Positions 12,087 to 42,365 of a DNA stretch of 64,000 nucleotides are shown piece by piece. The first letter of the stretch is position 1, and each line of letters begins with the position of its first letter. The stretch covers positions 8,378 through 72,377 of the forward strand of contig JAJFUS010000027.1 in assembly GCA_021372295.1 (NCBI GenBank). The letters run 5' to 3'. Under the pieces are notes generated by a model. That model was not told the DNA's origin. It did no database searches and worked only from the letters and a program-made list of their open reading frames with translations. This DNA is from a bacterium. GTDB lineage: Bacteria; Armatimonadota; UBA5829. The translations under genes were made by a program, and so were the position numbers.

Positions 12087-12169
12087 AAACAAGATTATAC
12101 TGAATGCATTCTCGCAACGGTCGTTAGTCAATGCGAGAATGCATAACTCAAAAACAAGGAGGTGCAATT

Positions 12170-14102: not shown

Positions 14103-14189
14103 GGGGACGTGGCGGAATGGCAGACGCGCTTGGTTGAGGGCCAAGTGAGCATAACGCTCATGTGAGTTCGACTCTCACCGTCCCCACCA
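14103..14189 (+). tRNA. tRNA-Leu (GAG), copy 2 (attR side), 87/87 identical to copy 1
   Basis: Direct comparison of the two sequences. It is followed by a terminator hairpin. Confidence 0.9.
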
Positions 14190-20174: not shown

Positions 20175-23100
20175 ATGAGACGAATCTTCATATTTGCAAT
20201 CATCTGTTTTTGTGCGCTTGCTGCTTCTTGCCAGACAGGCGCGGATATACTTCGGGTCAAAGTTGGTGGTACCGGTAACGGCACCAGTTGGGCGAATGCG
20301 TACGGCAAAATACAAGATGCTATCACCGCTTCGTCTGAGGACGATAGGATCTGGGTTCAGGGCTATTCTGACACCACGGTTTATAACGAATGCATCACAC
20401 TGAAAAATGGTGTTTCGATTAAGGGCGGATACGTAGGCGATAACAACAATAATACTGATGACGACTTGCGCGATATCGGCGACAATCCGACTTACGTCAC
20501 GACCATTTCTGCCTCAGGCTTGGATAGTTGTGTGGTCTATGCAGATGGCATAACCAACACCGAGGGCACTATTATCGAGTACTGCACCATCCGGGACGGC
20601 GTCGGTAAGCTGGTTTCCAACTACCGATACGGCTGCGGTGTATGTTGCATAAGCGCCTCACCGACTATCAGCCACTGCCGAATTTGCACCAATTACTATG
20701 ATGAGAGCGGCACATATACTTATCATGGCGGTGGAATATATGGAGATGCCGACTCAACTCCGGTGATACAGAACTGTGTAATTGTGTCGAATACGAGTGA
20801 TTGTGGTGGCGGGATATATTTGTATCAAGGTATTTGCACTGACAACAATATTTCCTCGAACCGTGCATGGGGACAAGGTGGTGGAGCCAGTCTTGGAGGT
20901 TCCGGTGCCACGGAATCAACCTTTACCGGCAATACAGTCAGTTCAAACCATGCTGTTTACGGCGGTGGTGGCGTATTTCTTGGCAATGGATCCGCTTATA
21001 CTGTATTTTCAGATAATCTAATTGATAGTAATGGCGTAATTGATGATGGCGGTGGCATTTCTGCCTTAGGTTCATGCAGTATCTTGAATAACAGGATAAC
21101 CAACAATTCTGCATGGGGGTGCGGCGGAGGTATTTTCTGGTATGAAGGTTCCTCATCGGGCAGCCTATATAACAACGTCATAAGTGGCAATAAGGCATAT
21201 ACATGGGGTAAAGGAGCCTATATAAGTTCAAGCGCCCACACGGAAATAGTCAATAACACAATTGTGAATAACACAAGTCAAGATGGCGGTATTAATCCAT
21301 GTGCTATCTACCTGACTGGCGGCACTGTTGGACTATACAACAATATTATCGCCAATAATTCCACGTACGGTGTTTATACTGTCGGGCAGATTACTTATTC
21401 CTATTACAACTGTTTATATAATAACGGCACAGACTATAACGTAACCCCGGTTAACAGCCTGGGCAATATCAATACATCTCCCAGCTTTGAGACAGACGGT
21501 TATCATCTGGCGGCGAATTCTACTAATTGCATCGACGCCGGTTACTACGATATCGTTGCTTGGGATACAGATATTGACACTCAGCCTCGTGTCCAAGGCA
21601 ACAATGTCGATATCGGCGCTGATGAGATTGACAATGACCCGCCAAGGGGAAGTATTGTGATTAGCGGGAGCGATGTGTTGTATACGCTGTCGACTACTGT
21701 CACTCTAATTCTCCACGCAACCGATTATTCCAGCGGAGTCTATCAGATGCGCTTCAGCAATGATGATTCAACTTGGAGTGAATGGGAGAGCTATGGATCC
21801 ATTAAGAGCTGGACTCTGGCCTCCGGCGACGGTGAGAAGACTGTTTACGTGCAGTATAAAGATAATGCCGGCAATGTGTCTGCCAGTTTCAGTGACCGCA
21901 TATACCTGCGTGTTGGTAATAAGGTTATATATGTAAATAACCAGACAGGCAATGACAATAACTATGGATTCACCTGGGCCACTGCGAAGGCGACTATCTG
22001 GAGAGGCGTTCAAGCTGCGCAGAGTGGCGATGAGGTGTGGGTAGCCGAGGGAACATATACTATTACCGTTATTTGCCCCACCAAGTCCAATATTGGCATA
22101 TATGGTGGCTTTGCCGGCGATGAGCTCAATCGTAATGACAGAGATTGGGTTACACACGAAACCATAATCGATGGTAGTGCGAATTATCTCGTAGTGGACG
22201 TTCCCATTGAGGGCAGCGGATCAGTCATAGATGGCTTTACCTTCCGCAACGGTGTCCCTTATGATGTTGGTGGGTACATATGGTGCTCTGGCTCAGTCAC
22301 CATTGCCCATAACAAGGTACTCATTGATGAGGCAGATTCTGCAATTTACATTGATGCAGCAGCAACGTTTCATGACAACCTTGTTATTGCAAGCTTTTTG
22401 AGTGGTGAGCCTATCAAGAATGGTGTTGTAGTTGGGTCGGGTGCGCAAATATTCAACAACACGATCGTTAACGCCTGTATAGCGTATAGTGACAGCGGCA
22501 CCTACGCAGTGGATAATAATATCATAGCGAATTGGGGAGATACCGCGACAATCACTTTGGATGCTGATTCCTGTTATAACAACTGTTTCTATGGTTTCGA
22601 CGCAGCAGACATCATAGGTGTCAACAACAACTTCTCAGGCGATCCACTGTTTGTGGACTCAGCGAACGGGGATTATCATTTATCAAACATCTCGCCATGT
22701 ATCGACGCCGGTTTGGGCAGTGTTGTGGGTACTGGCTGGCTGGATATTGATAATCAGCCTCGCATCCAGGGCAACAGCGTGGACATTGGTGTTGATGAGG
22801 TCGACAATGTTGTTCCGGTCGGCAGTGTGCTGATAAACCAAGGTGACACTTACGCACAATTAGCGGACGTGGTCTTAACTCTCACGGCGACGGATGCCGT
22901 CAGTGGCGTTTCCAAGATGCGTTTCAGCAATGACGGTTCAACTTGGAGCAGTTGGGAAAACTATGATACCAGTTGGGACTGGACTCTGGCTTCCGGCGAC
23001 GGAAACAAGACCGTCTATGCGCAGTTTAAGGATAATGCCGGCAATGTTTCTGCAACCTATAGTGACAGCATATACTTGCGTGTTGGTGAGAAAACCATAT

Positions 23101-26100
23101 ACGTCAACGGTCAAACCGGCAGCGACAATAACTACGGGTTTACCTGGGCGAGTGCAAAGGCGACTGTTTCCGGAGCTATCAGCACTGCATTAAGTGGCGA
23201 CCAGGTGTGGGTGGCGCAAGGAACATATTATGGGTGTATTACCCTGCCTGTGGGCGTGAAGCTGTATGGTGGATTCCCGACAACAAGCGAAAGCATACCC
23301 AATCCTGGTTTGAGCGACAGAGATTGGACAACAAATGTCTCAATATTGGATGCCAATGGTGCCGCAAGCACCGTGATATGCAATGTGGGTGTTACGAATA
23401 CAAGTGTCATAGACGGTTTCACGATAACCAATGCCACCAGCACAAGTGGGATTAAGTGCACAGACGCGCATCCGGTTATTTCTCACAATATTATTGATAT
23501 CAATGCGGTAAGCGGCATTTCATGCTGGGGCAATTCGCATCCCACCATTTGGGGGAATATCATATGTGATACAGCAACTTCAGCATCGCCATTATATGGT
23601 GAAATATATGATGGTATAGATATCAATGATACCTCATCTCCGCTGATAGTCAACAACACCATTGTTGATTTGCCGTGCAACGGCATTCATCTGACCAATA
23701 GACTTACTGTTTTTCCAACGATCGCCAACAACATTATTGCATACAACTCACGTGGGATATGTAGCGATGGCATCAATACGACCTCTGTCCTTGTGAATAA
23801 TCTTGTAGCCGTTAATAGCACCAATTATGTCTACGTTACAATGGGGGCCACCGACCTTATTCCATATGCCCCTGGCTTTGTTGACCGATCTGGCGCAGAT
23901 TACCACTTGATAGCAACTTCGCACGCCATTAATGGTGGTGATAGCAGCTACGTTGGTGAAGATTGGACTGACATTGATGGCGAGTCTCGTATAATGGGTT
24001 CGCATGTAGATATCGGCGCTGATGAATTTGTTGATTTTGCTGCTCCAACTAATGGAAGCATTGTGATCAATAGTGGCGCTGAGAATACTGAATCTCTTAG
24101 CGTTACCCTGACTCTTTCTGCAACTGATGACTATAGCGGCGTGTATCAGATGCGTTTCAGCAATGATGGCTCGACCTGGAGCGATTGGTATAGCTATGCA
24201 ACCACTAAGGGTTGGACTTTAGCCGCCAACGCTGCTGCGGAAAAGACAGTATACGTTCAGTTTCAAGATAAAGCATATCAAATATCTGACAGCTACAGCG
24301 ATACAATTGTATTGGTGGATATAACACCTCCTACTGGAAGCGTTGGTATTTCAGGAAGTAACGGTACCTGTACGCTTACTACATCAGTAACCCTTGTCTT
24401 GAGTGCGTCAGATTCGGGAAGCGGCGTGTATCAGATGCGTTTCAGCAATGACGGTTCGACCTGGAGCGATTGGGAGAGCTATGCAACCAGTAAGAGTTGG
24501 ACTCTGACTTCCGGCGAAGGGGAAAAGATAGTCTATGCGCAGTTCAAGGACTATTTCGGAAATGTAGCTGACGCCTCTGACGCGATATATTATCGTGTTG
24601 GTGAGAAGATTATATATGTTAATGCCGCAACAGGCGATGACGATAACTATGGATTTACCTGGGCGACTGCGAAGAAGAGTATCTACGGTGCCACATATCA
24701 GTTTGTGCAAAGTGGCGATGAAATATGGGTTGCCGCGGGGCAATATTCCAACATTGTCTCCGGCTTTATCAGTGTGCCCAACGTTGCGATATATGGCGGC
24801 TTTTTGGGCAGTGAAACCTCACTCGATCAAAGAAACTGGGTTGCCAACGAGACCGAAGTCATCAACTGGGGAGAAGCTTCCTGGGGATATATTGGTCTTT
24901 CTGGGCTGGTCATAGATGGTTTTACCCTTACTGATGTGTCTTCCCGAGGGTGGACCAGCGCAGTTACTATGGCTCATAATAAGATATGGATAACTGAGGC
25001 GGATGAAACAATCAACTTAAGTGCGGCAGTGGCGTTTCATGATAACTTGGTTATAACAGACACGTCGCAAATGTATGGCGAGACCATTACGGGTGGCGTT
25101 GCATTCGGATCAGGTGCGCAAATAATTAACAACACACTTATCGACACCAAGATATCGTACAGCGGCACTGGCACATATGCACTTAAAAACAACATCGTTG
25201 CAAATTTGGGAGACACTTCTACACTTTCCTTGGATCTTGCCTCATGCTACAACAACTGTTTCTACGGGTTCGATGTGCCGGGCGTTATCGGGAGCAACGG
25301 CAATTTTTCCAGTGATCCTCTGTTTGTGTATAAGGCGCATTATTGCGGTGACTACCACTTGACTTACGCTTCTCCGTGCATCGATACCGGACTTGACAGC
25401 GCTGTCGTGTCTGATCTGGATCTGGATAAGAATGATCGACAAATTGATCTTGCAGTAGGAACCTCGGGTGTCGCGGTAGATATTGGCGCTTACGAATATC
25501 CAGACTTGGCTTCTCCAAGTGGAAGTATCGTGATCAAAAATGGCGATGCGTATACGCAATCTACTACTGTCGACTTGACCCTTTCCGCAACTGATGATTA
25601 TAGCGGCGTGTATCAGATGCGCTTCAGCAATGATGGCTCGACTTGGAGCAGTTGGGTAAACTACCAAACCAGCTCAAGCTGCTCTTTGACTTCCGGCGAC
25701 GGCACAAAGACCGTTTATGTTCAGTTTATGGACAATGTAGGACGTGTGTCCGGTTCCTTCAGCGATACCATCATTTTGGATACAACATCTCCCACAGGAA
25801 GTATTAGTATTTCAAACGGAGCCCTTTACGCGACTGCGACATCAGTGACTCTTAACTTGAGCGCATCAGATGCTCGGAGTGGCGTATATCAGATGCGCTT
25901 TAGCAATGATGGCTCGACGTGGGGCAATTGGATTAATTATGCGACCAGCGCGAGTTGGTCTCTGACCTCCGGTGACGGAGAGAAGACCGTATATGCTCAG
26001 TTCAAGGACAATGTCGGCAATGTGTCGGCCAGCTATAGCGACAAAATATACCTGCGCGTCGGTGCGAAAACCATATATGTCAATGGCGAGACGGGCGGCA

Positions 26101-35333: not shown

Positions 35334-35503
35334 TATTGTCTCCAAAAAAGCTGAAAGCTGAGGGCTAAGAGCCCAGACTTGTGTCAGCCCCTGCTCCTTC
35401 TCCTGGGGGAGAGGGCCGGGGTGAGGACGCAACGTATCAACAATGAGTTCGCCAAACCCTGATCGTTATCATCCAATTATTTGATGCGGAATATCCTTGA
35501 TGT

Positions 35504-35541
35504 TTGACGCAGCAGGGATATTTGGTTATAATACCAAATAT
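35504..35541 (+). promoter_or_regulatory. Sigma70-type promoter (TTGACG-17-TATAAT) with a 9-bp inverted repeat straddling the -10; candidate ArsR operator
   Basis: TTGACG is at 35504-35509 and TATAAT at 35527-35532. ATATTTGGT (35518-26) and ACCAAATAT (35533-41) flank the -10 hexamer. Confidence 0.55.
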
Positions 35542-35557
35542 GGGGGTGCAACCAGAT

Positions 35558-35869
35558 ATGAACAGGCGAGCATACGAAGAGAGAGCGAAAATAATAAAGG
35601 CCCTGGCGCATCCCAGCCGGCTCATGATGGTCGATGCCATGGTGGACGGCGAAAAGTGCGTCTGCGAACTGCGTGACCTTGTTGGCTCGGATATGTCGAC
35701 TGTCTCCAAACATTTGTCACTCTTGAGAGAGGCCGGAATAGTCGATGACCGTAAAGTTGGTCAGCAGGTTTTTTACGGTCTGCGTTGTCCTTGCATTGTG
35801 AGCTTTTTCGGCTGTATCGAGGCGGTAATGAAATCCAATGCAAAAGATAAAATGGAACTAGTTGGATAG
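35558..35869 (+). CDS. ArsR/SmtB-family metalloregulator
   Basis: ...IIKALAHPSRLMMVDAM..GEKCVCELRDLVGSDMSTVSKHLSLLREAGIV... is a winged HTH with the CVC motif of arsenite-type ArsR. There are extra C-terminal Cys residues (CPC...GC). The start was chosen downstream of the mapped promoter. Confidence 0.85.
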   Translation: MNRRAYEERAKIIKALAHPSRLMMVDAMVDGEKCVCELRDLVGSDMSTVSKHLSLLREAGIVDDRKVGQQVFYGLRCPCIVSFFGCIEAVMKSNAKDKMELVG

Positions 35870-35978
35870 GCCCTGCGTATATTTAAGTGTTGAGCTCGAG
35901 GGAGCTTCTCTTTTTTGTTACACATTTGGTAATTTAGCCAATACACCAACAAGCGCGACTTTATATTGGAGGACAGTA

Positions 35979-36215
35979 ATGAAGAAAATCCAGATTCTGG
36001 GCACCGGCTGTGCGAAGTGCAAGACTCTTTACGAAAATGCGAAAAAGGCGGTCGAAGAGACCGGAGTGGAAGCCGAGATCGAGAAAGTCGAGGATATCAA
36101 GGACATCATGAAATTCAACATACTGATGACTCCCGGCCTGGTGGTCGATGGTGAGGTCAAGGCCGCCGGCAGAGTGTTGTCGCCCGAAGATATCAGGAAG
36201 CTTTTGGTAAGCTGA
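35979..36215 (+). CDS. Small thioredoxin-fold protein (redox-active disulfide protein 2 / Thioredoxin_3 type)
   Basis: MKKIQILGTGCAKCKTLYENAKKA...ILMTPGLVVDGEV... It is 78 aa with a CxxC motif. GGAGGA lies upstream. Confidence 0.8.
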   Translation: MKKIQILGTGCAKCKTLYENAKKAVEETGVEAEIEKVEDIKDIMKFNILMTPGLVVDGEVKAAGRVLSPEDIRKLLVS

Positions 36216-36227
36216 GGAGGCCTTGAA

Positions 36228-36605
36228 ATGTCCAAAGAACTGCCCGGCCTGATAATGTGCGTCTGCACCGGCAAATGCCCCGGATTTTCCAAGATGGATA
36301 TATGGGACTTCATCAACCGTGTGCGCGTCGAGCTTCCTGTGGAATACGCGTTCATTCATCCACAGCTCTGTGAAGAGGACGGCGACAGGTTCCTTGCCGA
36401 CCTGCTGAAATCGGGTCGCAAACTGGTGATTGCCGGATGCGCGCCCAATATGCAGTACAAGATGTTCCGCGATGCATTTGAGACTGTCGGTATGGATGTC
36501 AAAGTGGATATGGTTCCGCTGGATATTCGTGACATGTCGACTGACGAGGCCGTCAAGAAAGTCTCGAAGGCACTTGTCGAGATGGGAGTAGAGCACGATG
36601 GCTGA
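36228..36605 (+). CDS. Cys-rich small protein, divergent DGC-like / MvhD(FlpD)-like fold (uncertain)
   Basis: LIMCVCTGKCPG...PQLCEED...LVIAGCAPN... is co-linear with the DGC paralogs downstream but has AGC instead of DGC and lacks the fourth Cys. Confidence 0.4.
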   Translation: MSKELPGLIMCVCTGKCPGFSKMDIWDFINRVRVELPVEYAFIHPQLCEEDGDRFLADLLKSGRKLVIAGCAPNMQYKMFRDAFETVGMDVKVDMVPLDIRDMSTDEAVKKVSKALVEMGVEHDG

Positions 36606-36885
36606 CGACACTTTCATGGGCGTGAAGCGCGATAAGATAGACTGGTCTCCAACCATCGATTACTCCAAATGCGATTTTTGCATGGAGTGCGACAAGTTCT
36701 GCCCGCACCATGTTTTCGAGCGGCGCGACGATGATCCGAAGCTGGTGGTTGCAAACCCGCACAACTGCGTCGTTTTTTGCAGAGCGTGCGCGAAGACATG
36801 CGGGCCGGACGCGATATCGTTTCCAAGCAAGCCCGAGACCATCGCGGCGATCAAGAAAATCCGCGAGCAGGAGGATGGGCAATGA
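36598..36885 (+). CDS. 4Fe-4S dicluster-type ferredoxin
   Basis: CDFCMECDKFCP (CxxCxxCxxxCP) and CVVFCRACAKTC. It overlaps both neighbouring genes (8 nt and 4 nt). Confidence 0.8.
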   Translation: MADDTFMGVKRDKIDWSPTIDYSKCDFCMECDKFCPHHVFERRDDDPKLVVANPHNCVVFCRACAKTCGPDAISFPSKPETIAAIKKIREQEDGQ

Positions 36886-37724
36886 AACGCGCGGTGCTGC
36901 CATGTAACGGGTTGGACAAAGCATTCGGTGTGCTTGCTCGTGAGCTGGCTTTGAAGCTCTCTGAAACTCAAGGCGCGCAGATAATCTGTCCGGTGCTGCT
37001 GAACAATTCTCCAGCTAGATATGAGAATACTCTGGCTGAGGCTGATCTTCTGGTTATAGACGGCTGCCCGACACGCTGCGCGACAAAACTCGCCAACAAA
37101 CTGGGATTAAAGATTGACGATAAGCTGCTGGTGTCCGAGCAGGCGAAGAGTTCAGGGCTGGAAGTCGGGAAGTCGCTGAGACCTGGACCGCTGGGAATTC
37201 AGTTGGTTGAAATTATGGCCAATGGGCTTTCCGCGTCAAAAGAGAAGTCGGCAGAATCGGTCGCATCCGATGTTTTTGAATCTCCGGGCGACTTCCTGAC
37301 CGTCACCTACGACAAATTCGTCTTCAAGATACCCGTAGAGGGCTACCTGTTCAATGAGAATGACTGCTGGGTTCGAGTAATCGGCGACAGAGCGCGAGTT
37401 GGGGTGTCGGACTTTGTTCAGCAGAATATGACCGATATTACCTATTTTGAACCGGCGCAGCTCGGCGCTGAAATCGAGCAGTTCGATGAAGTCGGATCGC
37501 TTGAGTCGGGCAAGTCGATGATGGATGTATTATCACCAGTTTCGGGCGTGATTGTTGCGGTCAACACCCAACTTTCCGACAATCCCGAACTAGTAAATGA
37601 AGATCCATACGGCAAGGGTTGGATCGCAGAAATAAAACTTCGAGACTTTGATTCGGACAAAGCGCTGCTTATTGACGCCTATGCTTACTCTAGGGCCGTC
37701 GAAAAGAAAGCCGCCGAAGCATGA
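36882..37724 (+). CDS. Fusion protein: N-terminal DGC (putative Zn-binding, four-Cys) domain + C-terminal GcvH-like lipoyl-carrier domain
   Basis: DGC part: LPCNG...IICPVL...VIDGCPTRCA. GcvH part: ...VRVGVSDFVQQ...GSLESGKSMMDVLSPVSGVIVAVN...PYGKGWIAEI, with the lipoyl-Lys motif ES(V/G)K...SPVSG conserved. Confidence 0.75.
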   Translation: MKRAVLPCNGLDKAFGVLARELALKLSETQGAQIICPVLLNNSPARYENTLAEADLLVIDGCPTRCATKLANKLGLKIDDKLLVSEQAKSSGLEVGKSLRPGPLGIQLVEIMANGLSASKEKSAESVASDVFESPGDFLTVTYDKFVFKIPVEGYLFNENDCWVRVIGDRARVGVSDFVQQNMTDITYFEPAQLGAEIEQFDEVGSLESGKSMMDVLSPVSGVIVAVNTQLSDNPELVNEDPYGKGWIAEIKLRDFDSDKALLIDAYAYSRAVEKKAAEA

Positions 37725-37785
37725 TCTTATGCTGCTCCATATCCTGGGGGAGATGAAGCAGCATAGTATTTGAAAGGACTATGAA

Positions 37786-38196
37786 TTGACAACTGACACA
37801 GGCAAACGAAAAATCATAGTAATGCCATGCAGCGGCATCGGCAAAGTTCACGGCCTTATCGCTCGTGAGGCGACCTACGCCGTCGCCGATGAGATGGAGA
37901 ACGTCGAGACTATGTGCCTGGCGCTATTGGTTTCAGGCGACGAAGAAGCTCTGGCAAAACTCAGAAAAACCGACTGCATAGCGATAGACGGCTGCCCGAA
38001 GCTTTGCGCGGCCAAGAATGTGGAAATGGCAGGAGGCAAAGTAGTCAGGTCGATCCGTGTGGTCGATTCGTTCAAAAATCATCGCGGAGCCGAGCCCGGC
38101 ACGGCAACCACGCTTGCCAATGACGGCTGGACGATAGTTCAGGAAATAACTGGAGATATAACGGGCTGCGGATGCTCGGAAAGCGAGGTGAGCTAA
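37786..38196 (+). CDS. DGC-domain protein (paralog 2; TTG start)
   Basis: IIVMPCSGIGKVHG...TMCLALL...IAIDGCPKLCAAK. The C-terminal tail carries GCGC. Confidence 0.7.
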   Translation: MTTDTGKRKIIVMPCSGIGKVHGLIAREATYAVADEMENVETMCLALLVSGDEEALAKLRKTDCIAIDGCPKLCAAKNVEMAGGKVVRSIRVVDSFKNHRGAEPGTATTLANDGWTIVQEITGDITGCGCSESEVS

Positions 38197-38197
38197 T

Positions 38198-38881
38198 ATG
38201 TCCGACGGCGATATCAAGGTTGGGATCATTTCATGCAGCGGTGAGGAGATACCTGAAGGCACAATCTCCCGCCTGGCGACGCGAAGGGTTCTGGAACTTA
38301 TGCGGCCAGACAATACCGTGACAATCTGTCTGCCGTTATTCCTGGCTGGAAATCAAGCTGAACAGGAATTTGCCAAGAAACATCCGACCATAACCGTGGA
38401 CGGCTGCGACAAACTCTGCGCCAAGAAAGGCACCGAAAAGCATAGTGGGCCGGTAAGCGCTGCGCTGATTGTGTCGGATATACTCAACGGCGACTGCGCC
38501 TGTTGTGCTCGTTCGGCGAAGGATCGCACTGAGAGTGATAAGGCAGCTATCTGGACTGTCTCCGAGGAGATCGCCAAAGCAGTAGATTCGATTATCGCCA
38601 AAGATGCCTGTTGCGGTTCGGCAGATGCGGACGACGGTGCGGCCTGCGCGTGTTCAAAGCCGGTTCCCGGAATAGAGATCCAGGTCGACGGCAAGCCGGT
38701 CACCGTCGCCGGACTCGCGCTTATATTCGATCATCTGGCGGAAAATGGCCTTGCCGCCGACGATTCGTGTGGCGATAAGCTGCTCGAGACCGTTCGCATA
38801 TATCATCCGATCGAACCTGAAGAAGAGGATGCATATAAGGCAGCACTGATATCGGCATACAAAACACACAGGAGAATATAA
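38198..38881 (+). CDS. DGC-domain protein (paralog 3) with a Cys-rich C-terminal extension
   Basis: GIISCSGEEIPEG...TICLPLF...ITVDGCDKLCAKK, then ...CACCARS...DACCGS...ACAC... Confidence 0.7.
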   Translation: MSDGDIKVGIISCSGEEIPEGTISRLATRRVLELMRPDNTVTICLPLFLAGNQAEQEFAKKHPTITVDGCDKLCAKKGTEKHSGPVSAALIVSDILNGDCACCARSAKDRTESDKAAIWTVSEEIAKAVDSIIAKDACCGSADADDGAACACSKPVPGIEIQVDGKPVTVAGLALIFDHLAENGLAADDSCGDKLLETVRIYHPIEPEEEDAYKAALISAYKTHRRI

Positions 38882-39441
38882 TGAAAATCAAGTGGCTCAG
38901 ATTATTTGCAGTTATTTCGTTGATCGCCGCAATAGGGGTGAGCGCTCCGGTTTATAGTGCGCAGAAGAAAGCTGCAGCAAAAGTGAAGACCGGCGCGGTA
39001 TGCTCAAAGCCGGCTCCGGCAAAGAGCGTAAAAAAGTCCACGACAAAAAAGAACGCTTCAAAAGCTAAAGCCAAAGCAACCAAGAAACACGCTGCAAAGA
39101 AGTCGGCAACAAAGAAGAAAACCATTAAGGCAAAGCCTGCAGCATCTGTTTCGAAGGCTCTTCCGAGGTTGCTTGATCTGGGAGCGACCAAGTGTGTCCC
39201 ATGCAAGATGATGGTTCCTGTTCTGGACGACTTGAGCAAGGAGTATAAGGGTAAACTCAAGGTCGATTTCATCGATGTGTGGAAAGATCAGTCCGCTGGT
39301 GAGAAATACAACGTCCAGAGCATCCCTACTCAGATATTTTTCGATGCTAAGGGCAAAGAAGTCTATCGTCATGTCGGTTATTTCCCGAAAGCAGACATTT
39401 TGAAAGCATTCAAAGATCACGGAATCAAACTCACCAAGTAA
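38881..39441 (+). CDS. Exported thioredoxin (CVPC) with a Lys/Ala-rich linker
   Basis: It has a signal peptide (LIAAIGVSAPVYSA), a basic KKxAxK linker and a thioredoxin domain: LDLGATKCVPCKMMVPVLDDL...VQSIPTQIFFDAKGKEVYRHVG. Confidence 0.85.
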   Translation: MKIKWLRLFAVISLIAAIGVSAPVYSAQKKAAAKVKTGAVCSKPAPAKSVKKSTTKKNASKAKAKATKKHAAKKSATKKKTIKAKPAASVSKALPRLLDLGATKCVPCKMMVPVLDDLSKEYKGKLKVDFIDVWKDQSAGEKYNVQSIPTQIFFDAKGKEVYRHVGYFPKADILKAFKDHGIKLTK

Positions 39442-39455
39442 CAGGAGAGATTGCT

Positions 39456-39611
39456 TTGAAGCCTTATGTGAAGTTATTATTGGTGGTGGCTGTTTTTGCG
39501 CTTTGGGTGATGCTGAACCATCTGTCCAGCAAGAATGCGCCGGAGGCGTCGAGTGGCTGCTGTTGCGACGGAGGAAGTTGCCCCATCACTTCTCCGGCGA
39601 CACCCAAGTAA
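39456..39611 (+). CDS. Unannotated 51-aa membrane peptide with a C-terminal GCCCDGGSCP motif (TTG start; GTG at 39468 is an alternative)
   Basis: Hand translation: (M)KPYVKLLLVVAVFALWVMLNHLSSKNAPEASSGCCCDGGSCPITSPATPK. AGGAGAGA lies 5 nt upstream. It is below the 60-aa cutoff of the ORF track and fills the gap between two thioredoxin genes. Confidence 0.55.
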   Translation: MKPYVKLLLVVAVFALWVMLNHLSSKNAPEASSGCCCDGGSCPITSPATPK

Positions 39612-39649
39612 CCCAATATCAAATACTCTGATTAAGGAGTCCAGGTCGT

Positions 39650-40561
39650 ATGAAAACATTACTTTCTATACTTGCACTGACTTTGTCATGCGTTACGTGC
39701 GCAGTTGCGGATACAGCGGTTGTTACCGTCAAAGACACGTATCCGACCCTTACAAGCGGTGCGCTTGCGTCAGCGAGGCTTGTGGAACTTCCATCCGGCA
39801 CGATATTGCGCTCAGGGCAGATCAATCTCACACAGAAAGACCTGGATGCCGAGATAGCCAAGTCGCCCGAGGCAATACGCTCGCAACTCAAGCGCAACCT
39901 GTTCTTCGTGCTGGAGAACAAGGCTACGCAGGATTTCCTGGAGTATGAGGCTGACGCTTGGACCAGGCAAAACAAAACACATTCAAACCTCAATCAGGAC
40001 GATCTCGTAAAATCATATCTGTCGAGTCTAGCCGACAAATTAACGGTCAGCGACGAAGAAACCAAGGCTTTCTTCGACAAGAACGCCGACATGATGGGCG
40101 GCGCGACATTCGATCAGGTAAAAGATCAGCTCAAGGACTATGTTCTGGATCAGAAGCGTCAAGATGCAATAGACGCTCACATTGCATCAATGGGCACAAG
40201 ATACGAGATCGATGTAGACAATAGTTGGGCTGCAAAGCAATACTCTGCAGCAATTGACAATCCGATAGACAAGGCAAGGGTGTCAGGTAAGCCCACAATG
40301 GTAGATCTCGGCGCTGACGGCTGTCGCCCGTGCGATATGATGACTCCGATCCTGGAATCGCTGAAAAGTGAATATGCCGGAAGAGTAAATGTGCTTTTTG
40401 TGCACGTGCGCAAGGAGCAGGTTCTTGCGGCGCGTTATGGCGTGCAGTCGATTCCGGTGCAAGTCTTTTTTGACAAGGATGGTAAGGAAGTTTATCGACA
40501 CCTTGGATTTTTCCCAAAAGACCAGATAGTCGCGAAACTCGCCGAGATGGGGGTTAAGTAA
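39650..40561 (+). CDS. Exported two-domain protein: SurA-N/chaperone-like N-domain + thioredoxin (CRPC)
   Basis: It has a signal peptide. The C-terminal 110 aa (MVDLGADGCRPCDMMTPILESL...VQSIPVQVFFDKDGKEVYRHLG) are paralogous to the 38881 thioredoxin. Confidence 0.8.
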   Translation: MKTLLSILALTLSCVTCAVADTAVVTVKDTYPTLTSGALASARLVELPSGTILRSGQINLTQKDLDAEIAKSPEAIRSQLKRNLFFVLENKATQDFLEYEADAWTRQNKTHSNLNQDDLVKSYLSSLADKLTVSDEETKAFFDKNADMMGGATFDQVKDQLKDYVLDQKRQDAIDAHIASMGTRYEIDVDNSWAAKQYSAAIDNPIDKARVSGKPTMVDLGADGCRPCDMMTPILESLKSEYAGRVNVLFVHVRKEQVLAARYGVQSIPVQVFFDKDGKEVYRHLGFFPKDQIVAKLAEMGVK

Positions 40562-40562
40562 T

Positions 40563-41261
40563 TTGGAGCAACTGTTCATTACGTTGTCAAAAGCAATCGA
40601 GGCGTCCGCGCCGATTGCATTGGGCGCTTCACTAATATGGGGTATACTGAGCGTTATCCTGAGTCCGTGCCACCTGTCGAGCATCCCGCTCATCATCGGA
40701 TTTATCAGCGAACAGGGTAAGCTGACGACGCGCAAAGCGTTTGGGCTGTCATTTCTGTTCGGCCTTGGAATACTCGTCACTATTGCGGTCATAGGCATTA
40801 TGACTGCGGCTATGGGCCGGATGATGGGCGATGTAGGCAGATACGGTAACTACGCCGTTGCTGCTGTCTTTTTTGTGGTCGGTTTGCATCTGATCGGAGT
40901 GATACCTATGCCGTTCTCGGGGCCGGGTAATGTCGGTATGCAGCGCAAGGGACTGTTCGCGTCGTTCATACTGGGGCTGGTGTTCGGTGTCGCGCTTGGC
41001 CCATGCACGTTCGCGTATATGGCTCCGGTTCTCACGCTGACATTCAAGGTCTCGGCAACAAACGCCGTATATGCGGTATTGCTGCTTGCCGCTTATGGTA
41101 TCGGGCACTGCTCGGTGATCGTAGCCGCAGGCACGTCAGCGGAGGCGGTTCAGAACTATCTCAACTGGAACGAGAGGTCAAAAGGGACAACTATCCTTAA
41201 GCGTATTTGCGGCGTTCTGGTTGTGTTGGGTGGGATCTACCTGATTTATGTGGCAAACTGA
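40563..41261 (+). CDS. ccdA: CcdA/DsbD-family transmembrane thiol:disulfide electron transporter
   Basis: Six TM segments carry the two conserved membrane Cys motifs (LSPCHLSSIPL and LGPCTFAYMAP). Confidence 0.85.
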   Translation: MEQLFITLSKAIEASAPIALGASLIWGILSVILSPCHLSSIPLIIGFISEQGKLTTRKAFGLSFLFGLGILVTIAVIGIMTAAMGRMMGDVGRYGNYAVAAVFFVVGLHLIGVIPMPFSGPGNVGMQRKGLFASFILGLVFGVALGPCTFAYMAPVLTLTFKVSATNAVYAVLLLAAYGIGHCSVIVAAGTSAEAVQNYLNWNERSKGTTILKRICGVLVVLGGIYLIYVAN

Positions 41262-41910
41262 GCTGGAAATCATAAAATGGTCGGAACCGACAGTCGAGCA
41301 GAATTTGCTAATGGATGAGCGCCTCGCGCGAGAGGCAAAGCAGACGGGCAGACGGGTTCTGCGTTTATGGTGGGGCAGCAACGCCACGGCAGTTCTTGGA
41401 TGTGGTGACAAACCCGAAGTTGCCCTGGATCTCGACGAGTGCGTTCGTCGTGGAATCGGTTGGGTGAAGAGAGTCACGGGTGGTGGAACGGTGCTGCAGA
41501 CGCCCGGAGTGTTCAACTATTCGTATACCGCGCCGGATGGCGGGCGCATGGATATGCAGCGAACGTTCCAACAAGGCGCAGAGCTTATTGTAAACGCCCT
41601 GGCGCGTTTCGGATTAAGCGCGCAGCAGCGTGGAATATCAGATGTTACAGTAGGTAATCTGAAAATTTCGGGAAACGCGCAGGCTCGAAAGTGGCATTCT
41701 GTGCTGCTTCATGGAACACTGTTGGCCGACATAGATCGTAAACTTATGGAGGCAGTACTAAAACATCCGAGTAAGGAACCGGATTATCGAAACGGCCGCG
41801 CTCACAAAGACTTTATTGTCACACTCAATGATCTTGGCGTAACAGCCAATCAGGTGGAAATTGAAAACGTCTTTGCATCGACGGCAATCGAAGTTTTTGG
41901 GCAAATATGA
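41248..41910 (+). CDS. Lipoate-protein ligase family protein (BPL_LplA_LipB catalytic domain)
   Basis: ...LRLWW...RRGIGWVKRVTGGGTVLQ...NLKISGNAQARKW...LHGTLL... matches the LplA/LipB-type catalytic core with the K-x-SG-x-AQ lysine. It overlaps ccdA by 14 nt. Confidence 0.75.
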   Translation: MWQTELEIIKWSEPTVEQNLLMDERLAREAKQTGRRVLRLWWGSNATAVLGCGDKPEVALDLDECVRRGIGWVKRVTGGGTVLQTPGVFNYSYTAPDGGRMDMQRTFQQGAELIVNALARFGLSAQQRGISDVTVGNLKISGNAQARKWHSVLLHGTLLADIDRKLMEAVLKHPSKEPDYRNGRAHKDFIVTLNDLGVTANQVEIENVFASTAIEVFGQI

Positions 41911-41933
41911 TTGTATAATCGAGGTTATGTAAA

Positions 41934-42365
41934 ATGGCTGATTTGACAATTGCAGTAGAAGCAAAATCTTGCAGCAAGACGCGCACGGATGTTAGCGTCC
42001 GTGACCTGGTTTTTAGTATTGATGAACCTGAAAAACTCGGTGGCACCAATACTGGGCCAAATCCAATTGAATATGTGCTGGGTGCCCTCGCGGGTTGCAT
42101 CAACGTTGTTGGACATATTGTCGCAAAAGAGATGGGCTTTGATATCAGTTCGATGAAGCTGCATTTGGAGGGAAACCTTGATCCACTGGGCTATATGGGC
42201 AGAAAAACCGGTGTTCGCCCCGGCTTCAAGGAGATACGAGTGTCGATTGATATAGAGTCCACTGCAAGCGCCGACGTATTGCAAGAGTGGGCCAGGGCAA
42301 TAGAGGCTCGATGCCCGGTAAGCGACAATCTTGGTCAAATGACTCCGATAAATATTAGTTTGTGA
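41934..42365 (+). CDS. OsmC/Ohr-family peroxiredoxin-like protein
   Basis: ...GTNTGPNPIEYVLGALAGCINV...ARCPVSDNL... has the two conserved OsmC Cys positions. Confidence 0.8.
   Translation: MADLTIAVEAKSCSKTRTDVSVRDLVFSIDEPEKLGGTNTGPNPIEYVLGALAGCINVVGHIVAKEMGFDISSMKLHLEGNLDPLGYMGRKTGVRPGFKEIRVSIDIESTASADVLQEWARAIEARCPVSDNLGQMTPINISL

What the first reader, a model, noticed from the sequence alone, without database searches (positions are those of the whole stretch)
35504..42365. ArsR-gated 13-gene thiol/lipoyl redox cluster built around tandem DGC-domain paralogs and a CcdA-thioredoxin export relay
Seen in sequence: 13 same-strand genes with spacings from -14 to +110 nt. In order they are: (1) an ArsR with the arsenite-type CVC motif; (2) a 78-aa CxxC thioredoxin-fold protein; (3) a divergent DGC/MvhD-like Cys protein; (4) a 2x[4Fe-4S]-type ferredoxin; (5) a DGC-GcvH fusion; (6-7) two further DGC proteins, each with the (P/S)C-SG...C...(I/V)DGCxxxC four-Cys signature; (8) an exported thioredoxin (CVPC); (9) a 51-aa Cys-rich membrane peptide; (10) a second exported thioredoxin (CRPC) with a chaperone-like N-domain; (11) CcdA; (12) an LplA-type ligase overlapping ccdA; (13) OsmC. 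Established knowledge: CcdA/DsbD carry reducing equivalents from the cytoplasm to exported thioredoxins. GcvH-like proteins carry a lipoyl swinging arm. Ohr/OsmC peroxidases can be recycled by lipoylated proteins. The sHdr-LbpA sulfur-oxidation systems show that lipoate-binding proteins with dedicated ligases exist outside glycine cleavage and 2-oxoacid dehydrogenases. The DGC domain (Pfam DGC, a putative Zn-binding four-Cys domain) has no assigned function. Inference: this may be a self-contained, metal(loid)- or redox-responsive electron relay running from ferredoxin and DGC modules through lipoyl-GcvH and the small thioredoxin to CcdA and the periplasmic thioredoxins, with an OsmC branch. 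I know of no characterised system with this composition.
Basis: partly seen in the sequence, partly recalled or inferred. Interest (0 to 1): 0.85.

Follow-up and report, generated by a model that had tools for sequence, protein, structure and literature searches.

The report
Arsenic-regulated lipoyl-protein and DGC redox operon
This is a real 13-gene operon under an arsenic-type repressor, and its core (a lipoic-acid carrier protein fused to and flanked by cysteine-rich DGC proteins of unknown function) turns out to be a widespread, undescribed add-on of arsenic-resistance gene islands in oxygen-avoiding bacteria and archaea.

Summary
Thirteen same-strand genes at 35.5-42.4 kb have the stated identities. 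The one exception is gene 3, which is not a DGC protein but a stand-alone homologue of the Fe-S N-terminal domain of HdrA.

New here: the core is conserved from Armatimonadota-like bacteria to Acidobacteria, Chloroflexi, Desulfobacterota, Asgard and Bathyarchaeia. That core is ArsR, an ArsE-type thioredoxin, the HdrA-N-like protein, a ferredoxin, a DGC::H-protein fusion and two DGC paralogs.

In 34 of 51 related loci the core lies within 8-10 kb of Acr3, ArsC or ArsM (ArsP, ArsF and ArsG also counted in the metagenome set). The 64-kb window itself has none of these.

Other lineages unfuse the H-protein and add OsmC, dihydrolipoyl dehydrogenase, lipoyl synthase and LplA in one ars operon. DGC paralogs also occur fused to each other. 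CcdA with exported thioredoxins, LplA and OsmC are recurrent but optional modules.

Best reading (about 0.45): an arsenic-induced lipoyl dithiol hub, fed by ferredoxin here and by Lpd elsewhere. It would supply OsmC, the ArsE-type thioredoxin and a CcdA export relay.

Main rival (about 0.3): the lipoyl arm and the DGC cysteines bind arsenicals directly.

I found no description of such a module in the searchable literature. Verdict: a new variant of known lipoyl-carrier systems, interest 0.72.

The parts
35504..35532 (+). sigma-70-like promoter, TTGACG-17-TATAAT
   Evidence: Best promoter match in the region, 11 of 12 positions. Sequence read. The mechanical TTG 'start' of the arsR ORF is this -35 hexamer.
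35518..35541 (.). candidate ArsR operator: perfect inverted repeat ATATTTGGT-TATAAT-ACCAAATAT around the -10 box
   Evidence: The same repeat lies upstream of orthologous arsR genes in L091, L094, L095, L097, L098, L105, L110 and L112, with compensatory changes (TACTTGG/CCAAGTA). A second imperfect repeat (35490-35502 / 35510-35522) straddles the -35 hexamer.
35558..35869 (+). ArsR/SmtB repressor with CVCEL and a C-terminal CPC...C (an alternative start is ATG 35540)
   Evidence: HTH_5 1e-12. NF033788 scores 83 bits against a cutoff of 55. The CVC motif is kept in orthologues, or moved to the C-terminus in one subgroup.
35979..36215 (+). 78-aa cytoplasmic thioredoxin-fold protein (GCAKC), MTH895/ArsE family
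   Evidence: Thioredoxin_3 5e-28. TIGR00412 scores 111 bits against a cutoff of 62. Present in 24 of 29 metagenome loci. The CxxC motif is kept.
36228..36605 (+). 125-aa Cys protein homologous to the N-terminal [4Fe-4S] domain of HdrA
   Evidence: No Pfam or NCBIfam hit. Its profile hits HdrA residues 5-93 in PDB entries 7bkb, 9sfi and 5odc, with C11, C13, C48 and C71 aligned to HdrA Cys. It is the most conserved gene of the cluster, 61-89% identity across phyla. It is not DGC.
36598..36885 (+). 95-aa ferredoxin with eight Cys (two [4Fe-4S]-type motifs)
   Evidence: Fer4, Fer4_9 and Fer4_10 hits. Always adjacent to the HdrA-N-like gene; present in 23 of 29 metagenome loci.
36882..37724 (+). 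DGC::GcvH fusion (280 aa), with lipoyl-lysine K211
   Evidence: DGC 1e-17 plus GCV_H 5.5e-32. More than 120 homologues share the architecture. C8, C36, C62, C66 and K211 are invariant in 48 sequences. AlphaFold2 pLDDT 90.8. The H-domain superposes on the E. coli lipoylated H-protein 3ab9, TM 0.93, 37% identity.
37786..38196 (+). DGC paralog, 136 aa, with a GCGC tail
   Evidence: DGC 2e-16. Present in all 29 metagenome loci (it was the seed) and in 20 of the 22 loci of the first set (absent from L009, a 5.1-kb contig cut inside the cluster, and not detected separately in L027). Three of the four Cys are invariant; the second Cys is lost in Chloroflexi and Acidobacteria orthologues.
38198..38881 (+). 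DGC paralog, 227 aa, with an invariant CxC and a conserved C-terminal domain of about 70 aa
   Evidence: DGC 2e-15. C13, C44, C70, C74, C150 and C152 are invariant in 38 sequences. The C-terminal domain is modelled with confidence but has no PDB neighbour. It is fused to the DGC136 type in P0203 and P0233.
38881..39441 (+). exported thioredoxin (CVPC) with a signal-like N-terminus and a Lys/Ala-rich linker
   Evidence: Thioredoxin 4e-14. Signal peptide judged by inspection only. Present in 12 of 29 metagenome loci.
39456..39611 (+). 51-aa membrane peptide with a Cys/Gly-rich tail
   Evidence: No family. Orthologues only in the closest loci L091, L094 and L097. A real gene is probable; its function is unknown.
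39650..40561 (+). exported thioredoxin (CRPC) with an N-domain of about 200 aa and unknown fold
   Evidence: Thioredoxin 4.5e-12 over residues 212-298. 50% identical to gene 8 over the thioredoxin domain. Present in 10 of 29 metagenome loci.
40563..41261 (+). CcdA-type thiol-disulfide membrane transporter
   Evidence: DsbD_TM 1e-10. Both PC motifs are present (sequence). Only 48.5 bits to ArsG against a cutoff of 200, so it is a relative of ArsG and not ArsG. Present in 10 of 29 metagenome loci.
41248..41910 (+). lipoate/octanoate-protein ligase, catalytic domain only (220 aa)
   Evidence: LplA-B_cat 4e-36. Best PDB matches are LplA entries 8cri and 2ars, with the catalytic Lys of KISGNAQ aligned. 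Present in 12 of 29 metagenome loci and 6 of 22 first-set loci.
41934..42365 (+). OsmC-family thiol peroxidase-like protein with both Cys (C55, C127)
   Evidence: OsmC 7e-18. OsmC_like_Se scores 80 bits against a cutoff of 95. Best PDB match 2opl. Orthologues follow LplA in L094, L103 and L114. A second OsmC subfamily follows the DGC genes in 9 type-B and 4 type-C loci.

Best explanation
The region is one ArsR-repressed operon. Its conserved core is an uncharacterised accessory module of arsenic-resistance islands in anaerobes.

Most likely it is a dedicated lipoyl (dithiol) redox hub that is switched on by As(III). An H-protein domain is lipoylated by the operon's own LplA. It sits in a complex with three Cys-rich DGC domains: one fused to it and two encoded next to it.

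In this lineage the lipoyl group would be kept reduced by low-potential electrons. These would enter through the 2x[4Fe-4S] ferredoxin and the HdrA-N-terminal-like Fe-S protein. In Desulfobacterota relatives an operon-encoded dihydrolipoyl dehydrogenase would do the same job from NADH.

The dihydrolipoyl arm would then reduce thiol-dependent protective proteins:
- the OsmC peroxidase, as in the L-protein/H-protein/OsmC system;
- the ArsE-type small thioredoxin;
- through that thioredoxin and CcdA, the two exported thioredoxins. This parallels the ArsE/ArsG/ArsF layout seen in sister loci.
- In sister loci, the thioredoxin-coupled ArsC, ArsM and AhpD-like proteins encoded alongside.

Shown: gene identities, operon compactness, promoter and operator, deep co-conservation, protein fusions, linkage to ars genes, and invariance of the lipoyl-lysine and the DGC cysteines.

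Inferred: the inducer, lipoylation, the cofactor of DGC (Fe-S, Zn or As), and every electron-transfer step and its direction.
For: - One unit. Spacings run from -14 to +109 nt. The only strong promoter lies upstream of arsR, and no convincing internal terminator was found.
- A conserved inverted repeat over the -10 box recurs upstream of eight orthologous arsR genes. The CVC motif is conserved.
- Core synteny holds in loci from at least seven phyla, including Asgard archaea and Bathyarchaeia.
- In 29 metagenome loci of at least 6 kb: DGC227 28, GcvH 27, Trx3 24, ArsR 24, ferredoxin 23, HdrA-N-like 22.
- Physical coupling. DGC::GcvH is one polypeptide in more than 120 homologues. DGC136::DGC227 fusions occur in P0203 and P0233.
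- The lipoyl-lysine is invariant, and it is kept in the unfused forms (ETIKA/V).
- The H-domain is structurally a true H-protein.
- Dedicated lipoylation and recycling. LplA sits in the operon here and in 18 related loci. LipA and dihydrolipoyl dehydrogenase score above their NCBIfam cutoffs (TIGR01350 484 bits against 409) inside the same ars operons. The order Acr3-x-GcvH-DGC-DGC-OsmC-Lpd-LipA-LplA is found in the L170 chromosome. An Lpd-like gene lies directly upstream of the HdrA-N-like gene in L160.
- Consumers. OsmC is adjacent in 20 loci of 51. Ohr/OsmC enzymes use dihydrolipoamide or lipoylated proteins, and Trichomonas OsmC is discussed as supported by the L and H proteins (PMC5384416). 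AhpD-core proteins occur in L003, L087, L088 and L009.
- Arsenic linkage. Acr3, ArsC or ArsM lies within 8-10 kb in 14 of 22 loci, and an ars gene in 20 of 29 metagenome loci.
Against: - As(III) is the classic poison of dihydrolipoyl groups. A lipoyl-based reductant supply that is induced by arsenic is therefore paradoxical unless it is somehow protected.
- Nothing shows that DGC binds Fe-S. It has no PDB relative by sequence or by fold. The DGC136 subfamily tolerates loss of one of the four Cys.
- Passing electrons from a plain Fe-S chain to a disulfide needs special chemistry, which is not evident here.
- Type-B loci in Chloroflexi and Acidobacteria have neither the Fe-S pair nor Lpd nearby.
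- Peroxide stress is not an obvious problem for strict anaerobes.
- The window itself has no ars structural gene within 64 kb.
- All carriers found are uncultured, so no expression or phenotype data exist.
Confidence: 0.45

Rival explanations
1. Arsenical binding and trafficking. The reduced lipoyl arm (a vicinal dithiol) and the DGC cysteine sites bind As(III) or trivalent organoarsenicals such as MAs(III) directly. They would act as a sink that spares essential dithiol enzymes, or as a swinging-arm chaperone. The chaperone would hand arsenicals to Acr3, ArsP or ArsG for efflux, or to ArsM for methylation. The Fe-S proteins or Lpd would serve only to keep the arm reduced and able to bind.
For: - ArsR control and tight linkage to efflux genes. 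Acr3 lies immediately upstream of GcvH in L011, L021 and L170. The order ArsR-ArsP-Trx3-core occurs in L103, L114, L121, L127, L134 and L158. DGC pairs lie next to ArsF-ArsG without any GcvH in L167 and L169.
- A DGC protein sits in a plain ArsR-ArsP-ArsE operon of P. mercurii (bioRxiv 10.1101/2022.10.17.512643).
- Only three Cys are invariant across DGC136 orthologues, which is the number an As(III) S3 site needs.
- DGC227 has an invariant CxC, like the CVC of ArsR.
- This lineage adds Cys-rich tails (GCGC, CACC, CC) and a Cys-rich membrane peptide.
- Established knowledge (own): trivalent arsenicals bind dihydrolipoyl groups with high affinity.
Against: - It does not explain OsmC, the AhpD-like proteins, the ArsE-type thioredoxin or the CcdA/exported-thioredoxin branch, all of which are redox enzymes.
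- The fusion's DGC domain keeps all four Cys invariantly, which fits a metal or cluster site.
- A stoichiometric protein sink is costly.
- No binding data exist.
Confidence: 0.3
2. A patchwork rather than a system. Several independent small units merely share an ArsR promoter in this lineage and have no common pathway. The units would be ArsR plus ArsE-type thioredoxin; the DGC/GcvH set; the CcdA/thioredoxin envelope relay; and a ligase with OsmC.
For: The accessory modules vary between lineages. CcdA is in 10 of 29 metagenome loci, LplA in 12 and OsmC in 7. ArsF/ArsG, ArsP, AhpD-like or Lpd appear instead in others.
Against: - The seven-gene core is syntenic across phyla and domains, and parts of it are fused.
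- LplA-OsmC follow the core again in loci whose fusion protein is only about 52% identical (L103 and L114).
- A ligase, a lipoyl synthase, a lipoyl reductase and a lipoyl-dependent peroxidase type next to a lipoyl carrier form a coherent set.
Confidence: 0.1
3. A sulfur or thioarsenical-handling system, analogous to sHdr-LbpA. The lipoyl arm would carry sulfane sulfur, for example while desulfurising or reducing thioarsenates in sulfidic habitats. The HdrA-like and ferredoxin proteins would be the redox partners.
For: There is precedent for GcvH-like lipoate-binding proteins with their own ligases working with Hdr-like Fe-S proteins (PMC6067878 and PMC10332631). Gene 3 is HdrA-N-like. A rhodanese lies in L003. 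The habitats are anoxic.
Against: There is no HdrB/HdrC CCG domain, no FAD domain of HdrA, no DsrE or TusA, and no LipS1/S2 in any locus examined. The ligase is far below the sLpl(AB) cutoff, 66 bits against 550. The rhodanese was seen only once.
Confidence: 0.05
4. Ordinary glycine cleavage or lipoate salvage genes that happen to lie beside an ArsR gene.
For: The H-domain scores just under the GcvH cutoffs (116.4 against 117, and 108 against 115.85). It superposes on true H-proteins. Sources annotate these proteins as GcvH.
Against: There is no GcvT or GcvP in the window or in any related locus. The domain has a subfamily-specific N-terminal beta-hairpin extension. It is constantly partnered with DGC proteins and ars genes.
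Confidence: 0.02

Closest known systems
L-protein / H-protein / OsmC peroxide reductase (Trichomonas vaginalis hydrogenosomes), and the bacterial Lpd-lipoyl protein-Ohr/OsmC peroxidase
   Same: It uses a lipoylated H-protein as electron carrier between a reductase and an OsmC-family Cys peroxidase (PMC5384416; the Nyvltova and Cussiol papers are cited there). Sister loci encode exactly GcvH + Lpd + OsmC in one operon. The window has GcvH + OsmC.
   Different: No Lpd in the window. An Fe-S pair and three DGC domains are present instead. The H-protein is fused to DGC. There is ArsR control and ars-island context, and dedicated LplA/LipA.
ArsEFG of Shewanella putrefaciens (Chen, Zhang and Rosen 2019; the paper is not held, so this rests on NCBIfam models and citations)
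   Same: Gene 2 is a member of the ArsE family. Sister loci carry bona fide ArsF and ArsG directly after the DGC genes. The window's cytoplasmic thioredoxin + CcdA + exported thioredoxins have the same three-part layout.
   Different: The window has no ArsF (no hit), and its CcdA is not ArsG (48.5 bits against 200). ArsEFG is described as a nitroreductase plus efflux system for aromatic arsenicals, and nothing here tests that. DGC is not ArsF.
sHdr-LbpA sulfur oxidation system with sLpl(AB) ligase
   Same: A GcvH-like lipoate-binding protein outside glycine cleavage, with its own ligase, next to Hdr-related Fe-S proteins (PMC6067878 and PMC10332631).
   Different: Only the N-terminal domain of HdrA is represented. 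There is no HdrB/C, DsrE, TusA or LipS1/S2. The ligase type differs. The context is arsenic, not sulfur oxidation.
GcvH-L / LplA2 / SirTM / macrodomain operon of Staphylococcus and Streptococcus
   Same: A stress-response operon built on a spare H-protein with a dedicated ligase. Lipoyl-GcvH-L protects against oxidants (PMC12440151). GcvH-L (5a35) is a structural hit.
   Different: No sirtuin or macrodomain here. The partners are DGC and Fe-S proteins, and the regulator is ArsR.
Mycobacterium tuberculosis Lpd-DlaT-AhpD-AhpC peroxidase (own knowledge)
   Same: The chain Lpd, then a lipoyl protein, then a CxxC adaptor, then a peroxidase. AhpD-core proteins sit in several sister loci.
   Different: The lipoyl carrier is an H-protein, not an E2. 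There is no AhpC, and the window has no AhpD-like gene.
ars-operon reductant suppliers ArsT/ArsX (thioredoxin reductase and thioredoxin in actinobacterial ars operons; own knowledge, arsRBOCT cited)
   Same: The idea that ars islands carry their own disulfide-reductant supply for ArsC.
   Different: Entirely different proteins: lipoyl, DGC and Fe-S instead of TrxR/Trx.

Membership tests
ArsR-regulated ars operon / arsenic island | ArsR/SmtB repressor with an As(III)-type Cys site | tested here: met
   HTH_5 and NF033788 score above their cutoffs. CVCEL is present and conserved in orthologues. Metal specificity was not tested.
ArsR-regulated ars operon / arsenic island | operator overlapping the promoter | tested here: inconclusive
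   A perfect 9+9 inverted repeat surrounds the -10 box and is conserved in eight orthologous loci. Binding was not tested.
ArsR-regulated ars operon / arsenic island | arsenic efflux or transformation genes (Acr3/ArsB, ArsC, ArsM, ArsP) in the locus | tested here: not met
   None anywhere in the 64-kb window. The feature is met in 14 of 22 and 20 of 29 related loci, so the module belongs to ars islands but this copy is detached from them.
ArsEFG | ArsE (MTH895/ArsE thioredoxin-like, TIGR00412) | tested here: met
   111 bits against a cutoff of 62.
ArsEFG | ArsF (NF040494) | tested here: not met
   No window protein hits it. It is met by separate proteins in L003, L087, L088 and L011.
ArsEFG | ArsG permease (NF040495) | tested here: not met
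   The window CcdA scores 48.5 bits against a cutoff of 200. True ArsG in L087 scores 272 bits.
CcdA/DsbD-thioredoxin export relay | DsbD_TM membrane protein with two transmembrane Cys | tested here: met
   PF02683 1e-10. The motifs SPCHL and GPCTF are present.
CcdA/DsbD-thioredoxin export relay | exported CxxC thioredoxin partners | tested here: inconclusive
   Thioredoxin domains with CVPC and CRPC. Export was judged only from the hydrophobic N-termini, because no signal-peptide tool was available.
Glycine cleavage system | H-protein fold with lipoyl-lysine | tested here: met
   GCV_H 5.5e-32. K211 is invariant. TM 0.93 to 3ab9.
Glycine cleavage system | GcvT and GcvP partners | tested here: not met
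   Absent from the window and from all annotated related loci.
sHdr-LbpA | HdrB/HdrC (CCG domains) and flavoprotein HdrA | tested here: not met
   Only a 125-aa HdrA-N-terminal-like protein is present. No CCG or FAD domains appear or in the neighbour tables.
sHdr-LbpA | sLpl(AB)-type ligase and LipS1/S2 | tested here: not met
   NF053751 scores 66 bits against a cutoff of 550. There is no radical-SAM gene in the window cluster.
L-H-OsmC / Lpd-lipoyl-Ohr peroxidase | OsmC/Ohr-family protein with the two catalytic Cys | tested here: met
   PF02566 7e-18. C55 and C127 (RCPV) are present.
L-H-OsmC / Lpd-lipoyl-Ohr peroxidase | dihydrolipoyl dehydrogenase | tested here: not met
   None in the window. 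It is present in the operon in L012, L019, L021 and L170, with an Lpd-like gene in L160.
L-H-OsmC / Lpd-lipoyl-Ohr peroxidase | lipoyl-dependent peroxidase activity | not testable with these tools
   Needs an enzyme assay.
Pfam DGC (PF08859) | four conserved Cys including the DGC motif | tested here: met
   Three window proteins score 57-64 bits against a cutoff of 27. The Cys are invariant in the fusion and in DGC227. The second Cys is dispensable in DGC136 orthologues.
Pfam DGC (PF08859) | zinc binding (Pfam's proposal) | not testable with these tools
   No solved relative by sequence or by fold.
GcvH-L/LplA2/SirTM operon | SirTM ADP-ribosyltransferase and macrodomain | tested here: not met
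   No such domains.

The most novel reading that the evidence does not exclude
The lipoyl swinging arm is used on arsenic itself. The DGC domains would be As(III)/organoarsenical-binding or site-differentiated Fe-S modules. Together with the lipoyl-H protein they would form a cofactor-based metalloid carrier or processing machine: a trap, a chaperone to Acr3/ArsP/ArsG/ArsM, or a reductase of pentavalent or thiolated arsenicals. In this lineage it would be driven by ferredoxin through a new kind of Fe-S-dependent lipoyl reductase. That would give the DGC domain its first function and lipoate a role in metalloid handling.
Probability: 0.3. Interest if true: 0.9.

Novelty: new variant of a known kind. 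Interest (0 to 1): 0.72.

Why it matters
Three points follow if this is right.

First, a domain family with no known function (DGC, annotated only as 'putative zinc-binding protein') gets a firm biological context and testable partners. The context is arsenic islands. The partners are a lipoyl carrier, an HdrA-like Fe-S protein and an ArsE-type thioredoxin.

Second, lipoate is the textbook target of arsenite. Finding a dedicated, arsenic-regulated lipoyl protein with its own ligase, synthase and reductase inside ars operons was unexpected. It points either to a protected reductant supply for arsenic detoxification in anaerobes or to direct lipoyl-arsenic chemistry. How strict anaerobes power and organise arsenic (and methylarsenic) detoxification is an open question with environmental relevance, for example in rice paddies and aquifers.

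Third, the module is missing from arsenic-gene catalogues. Its proteins are annotated as GcvH or zinc-binding protein, so metagenomic surveys overlook it.

Tried and rejected
Led nowhere:
- tblastn of DGC136 against 72,556 plasmids gave no match.
- The ArsEFG paper is not in the library, so ArsE/F/G identities rest on NCBIfam models.
- DGC against the PDB, by sequence and by fold, gave no relative.
- The AlphaFold2 model of DGC227 is poor in its DGC half (pLDDT 68 overall).
- The broad DGC alignment was too diverse to seed a metagenome scan. A narrower one was used, which returned only close type-A and type-C relatives.
- Rfam found no RNA element in the cluster.
- Five literature searches for this gene combination found nothing relevant.

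Considered and rejected:
- 'ArsF is the DGC protein.' Wrong: NF040494 hits a different, membrane-anchored CxxC protein.
- 'Gene 3 is a divergent DGC.' hhalign probability is 0.15%.
- 'The CcdA is ArsG.' It scores 48.5 bits against a cutoff of 200.
- Canonical glycine cleavage, and sHdr membership: the defining partners are absent.
- The TTG at 35504 as the arsR start: it is the -35 hexamer.

Full report

Yes. One search lists 13 ORFs on the + strand between 35504 and 42365. Successive spacings are +109, +12, -8, -4, +61, +1, -1, +14, +38, +1, -14 and +23 nt.

Pfam and NCBIfam confirm twelve of the thirteen assignments.
- Gene 1: an ArsR/SmtB repressor with the sequence CVCEL.
- Gene 2: a 78-aa Thioredoxin_3 protein. 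NCBIfam places it in the MTH895/ArsE family, 111 bits against a cutoff of 62.
- Gene 4: an eight-Cys ferredoxin.
- Gene 5: a DGC + GCV_H fusion.
- Genes 6 and 7: two further DGC proteins.
- Genes 8 and 10: two thioredoxins behind hydrophobic N-termini.
- Gene 11: a DsbD_TM (CcdA-type) protein with both PC motifs.
- Gene 12: a protein that is only an LplA catalytic domain.
- Gene 13: an OsmC with both Cys.

Gene 3 is the exception. It has no family hit and no profile similarity to DGC (hhalign probability 0.15%). A profile of 11 orthologues matches residues 5-93 of HdrA, its N-terminal Fe-S domain, in three independent PDB families. The E-values are 8.7e-4, 1.5e-3 and 0.056. C11, C13, C48 and C71 align to HdrA cysteines.

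Gene 9 (51 aa) has no family. It is conserved, helix and Cys/Gly tail included, in the three closest loci.

**2. One transcription unit under ArsR**

The best sigma-70-like site of the region is TTGACG-17-TATAAT at 35504-35532, just upstream of arsR. The ORF's mechanical TTG start is in fact this -35 hexamer. The true start is ATG 35540 or 35558.

A perfect inverted repeat, ATATTTGGT-TATAAT-ACCAAATAT (35518-35541), encloses the -10 box. The same repeat, with compensatory changes in both arms, lies upstream of the orthologous arsR in eight other loci whose ArsR is 53-90% identical. This is what an autoregulated ArsR operator looks like, but binding is untested.

No convincing terminator lies inside the cluster. 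A weak hairpin with a T-run sits between arsR and gene 2 (35892-35907). The next gene downstream, trkA, is 300 nt away and has its own promoter-like site.

**3. What the surroundings in other genomes show**

The fusion protein has more than 120 homologues with the same DGC + GCV_H architecture. C8, C36, C62, C66 and the lipoyl-lysine K211 are invariant in 48 of them.

Neighbourhoods came from five sources: (gene tables with Pfam); a scan of one genome per species; a metagenome scan seeded on DGC136 orthologues; tblastn synteny maps; and an all-against-all clustering of neighbours. They reveal three arrangements.
- Type A is the window's arrangement. The order is (ArsR)-Trx3-HdrA-N-like-ferredoxin-DGC::GcvH-DGC136-DGC227. 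It occurs in Armatimonadota-like MAGs, Acidobacteria, a Clostridium MAG, Vulcanimicrobiota, a Promethearchaeota archaeon and a Bathyarchaeia archaeon.
- Type B is a free GcvH of about 149 aa (lipoyl site ETIKA/V), then DGC, DGC and an OsmC-family protein, without the Fe-S pair. It occurs in Syntrophales and other Desulfobacterota, Terriglobia and other Acidobacteria, and Anaerolineae and other Chloroflexi.
- Type C is GcvH-OsmC-Trx3-DGC-DGC-ArsF-ArsF-ArsG.

Among 29 metagenome loci of at least 6 kb the counts are as follows.

| Gene | Loci (of 29) |
|---|---|
| DGC227 | 28 |
| GcvH | 27 |
| Trx3 | 24 |
| ArsR | 24 |
| ferredoxin | 23 |
| HdrA-N-like | 22 |
| LplA | 12 |
| exported thioredoxin | 12 |
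| CcdA | 10 |
| OsmC | 7 |

The exact 13-gene order of the window recurs in L094. LplA-OsmC follow the core again in L103 and L114, whose fusion protein is only about 52% identical.

P0203 and P0233 are single polypeptides joining the DGC136 and DGC227 types. The three DGC domains and the H-protein are therefore almost certainly one physical complex.

**4. The arsenic link**

Loci were seeded only on GcvH or DGC. Even so, Acr3, LMWP-type ArsC or ArsM lie within 8-10 kb in 14 of 22 loci of the first set. At least one of Acr3, ArsC, ArsM, ArsP, ArsF or ArsG lies near in 20 of 29 metagenome loci.

NCBIfam confirms the identities. ArsM scores 272-293 bits against a cutoff of 263. ArsG scores 272 against 200. 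ArsF scores 82-111 against 60. ArsP_1 is confirmed by Pfam.

For genes present a few times per genome, chance would put them this close in roughly 1-2% of loci (my estimate).

In a 2.6-Mb chromosome of an uncultured Desulfobacterium (L170) the genes run on one strand. The order is ArsR-Trx3 ... DsbD_TM-Acr3-x-GcvH-DGC-DGC-OsmC-Lpd-LipA-LplA ... ArsM-like. Lpd and LipA score above their equivalog cutoffs.

The only paper in the library that mentions PF08859 notes a DGC protein of unknown function in an ArsR-ArsP-ArsE operon of Pseudodesulfovibrio mercurii.

The window itself, and its closest relatives (L001, L091, L094, L095, L097 and L132), have no ars structural gene nearby. They keep the ArsR and its operator.

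**5. The parts in more detail**

The H-domain is a genuine H-protein. The AlphaFold2 model has pLDDT 90.8. It superposes on the lipoylated E. coli H-protein (3ab9) with TM 0.93 at 37% identity. An extra N-terminal beta-hairpin (DKFxFKIP) is shared by the fused and free forms.

The DGC domain is predicted as an alpha/beta fold, with the Cys at the ends of the strands. It has no relative in the PDB by sequence or by fold.

A profile of the three window DGC domains finds only 592 representative clusters among 1.84 billion proteins, so this is a small family.

Across DGC136 orthologues only three of the four Cys are invariant. DGC227 adds an invariant CxC and a confidently modelled C-terminal domain of about 70 aa that has no known relative.

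LplA lacks the accessory domain, resembles Thermoplasma LplA, and keeps the catalytic Lys.

The window's CcdA is related to ArsG but is not ArsG (48.5 bits against 200). The DGC proteins are not ArsF, which is a different, membrane-anchored CxxC protein.

**6. How it most likely works**

The coherent set is a lipoyl carrier; enzymes that attach lipoate (LplA) and make it (LipA); a lipoyl reductase (Lpd); and an OsmC-family peroxidase. OsmC-family enzymes are known to run on dihydrolipoamide or lipoylated proteins, including an L-protein/H-protein/OsmC system in an anaerobic eukaryote (PMC5384416).

I therefore read the module as an arsenic-induced lipoyl dithiol hub. In type A the Lpd is replaced by a ferredoxin plus an HdrA-N-like Fe-S protein, which suggests input from reduced ferredoxin. 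One type-A locus has an Lpd-like gene directly upstream (L160).

Outputs would be OsmC, the ArsE-type thioredoxin and, through CcdA, the exported thioredoxins. This three-part layout mirrors ArsE/ArsG/ArsF in sister loci. In other lineages the outputs would include the thioredoxin-coupled ArsC, ArsM and AhpD-like proteins. NCBIfam even knows ArsM-AhpD fusion proteins.

Shown: composition, conservation, fusion, regulation signals and arsenic linkage. Inferred: everything about electron flow, the DGC cofactor and the inducer.

Confidence in this mechanism is about 0.45. Confidence that this is one conserved, arsenic-linked module is about 0.9.

**7. The main rival (about 0.3)**

The module may handle arsenicals directly. 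Dihydrolipoyl is the classic high-affinity ligand of trivalent arsenicals (established knowledge). That makes a lipoyl-based relay under arsenic stress paradoxical, and a lipoyl-based trap or chaperone attractive.

Four observations fit this reading:
- DGC136 needs only three Cys.
- DGC227 has an invariant CxC.
- DGC pairs occur beside ArsF-ArsG without GcvH (L167 and L169).
- Acr3 or ArsP directly abut the core in many loci.

It fails to explain OsmC, the AhpD-like proteins, the thioredoxins and CcdA. The two models can be combined.

Minor rivals are a patchwork of independent units, sHdr-like sulfur or thioarsenate chemistry, and ordinary glycine cleavage. They are weighed in their own entries.

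**8. Comparison with known systems, and novelty**

The cluster is not a member of the glycine cleavage system, sHdr-LbpA, ArsEFG, the GcvH-L/SirTM operon or the Lpd-lipoyl-Ohr/OsmC system. For each, at least one defining component was tested and is absent from the window (see the membership table).

It works most like the L/H/OsmC and Lpd-DlaT-AhpD type of lipoyl relays. It shares the ArsE component and the membrane-relay layout with ArsEFG.

The new elements are the obligatory DGC partners, the Fe-S input, and the embedding in arsenic islands. Five literature searches found no description. Public annotations call the proteins 'GcvH' and 'putative zinc-binding protein'. All carriers found are uncultured.

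I rate it a new variant of a known kind (dedicated lipoyl-carrier systems), with interest 0.72. There is a 0.3 chance that it is something categorically new, namely lipoyl-based arsenic handling or a ferredoxin-dependent lipoyl reductase.

Noticed in passing
window 3324-3410 and 14103-14189: Two identical copies of tRNA-Leu(GAG), with unrelated flanks, bracket a 10.8-kb insert. The insert carries a D5-type primase/helicase (7622-10417) and a tape-measure-like protein (12131-13924). It looks like a phage-like or satellite element integrated at tRNA-Leu with the whole tRNA duplicated.
   Followed up: partly
window 20175-28622: A single 2815-aa ORF with right-handed beta-helix, Big_7 and DUF7743 domains, probably a giant surface or adhesin-like protein.
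   Followed up: no
L087 11739-13724; L003 11561-12001; L151 5592-6671: Bona fide ArsF and ArsG sit directly after the DGC genes. ArsG carries the two CcdA-type transmembrane Cys, and ArsF is a membrane-anchored CxxC protein. ArsE/ArsG/ArsF therefore looks architecturally like a CcdA-type transmembrane thiol relay rather than a plain nitroreductase plus permease.
   Followed up: partly
P0203, P0233 (metagenome proteins); P0103: Natural fusions of the DGC136 and DGC227 types into one polypeptide. P0103 is a DGC::GcvH protein running on into a DGC136-like sequence, which may be a frameshift artefact.
   Followed up: yes
L015, L027, L028, L061, L069, L075 (DGC136 orthologues): The second of the four 'zinc-binding' Cys of the DGC domain is replaced by Pro or Ala in Chloroflexi and Acidobacteria orthologues, leaving three invariant Cys.
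   Followed up: partly
window 35892-35907: A terminator-like hairpin followed by a T-run lies in the 109-nt gap between arsR and the thioredoxin gene. It could be an attenuator that sets the regulator:structural gene ratio.
   Followed up: no
L091, L094, L097 upstream of arsR; L103 8239-8595; L114 12254-12616; L021 7056-7430; L098 downstream of DGC227; L141 between the second Trx3 and ArsF: A fourth, canonical stand-alone DGC protein (122 bits to PF08859 in L021) accompanies many clusters. It is missing from the window, where a divergent DUF2961 gene lies upstream instead.
   Followed up: partly
L094 8846-10676 and other window-like loci: The long exported thioredoxin (gene 10) is present as two tandem paralogs in the closest relatives, but only once in the window.
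   Followed up: no
L170 (uncultured Desulfobacterium sp., LT984854.1 2528731-2547147): The most complete version found: Acr3, a DUF1462-like protein, GcvH, two DGC genes, OsmC, Lpd, LipA and LplA on one strand inside an ArsR/ArsM-flanked island.
   Followed up: yes
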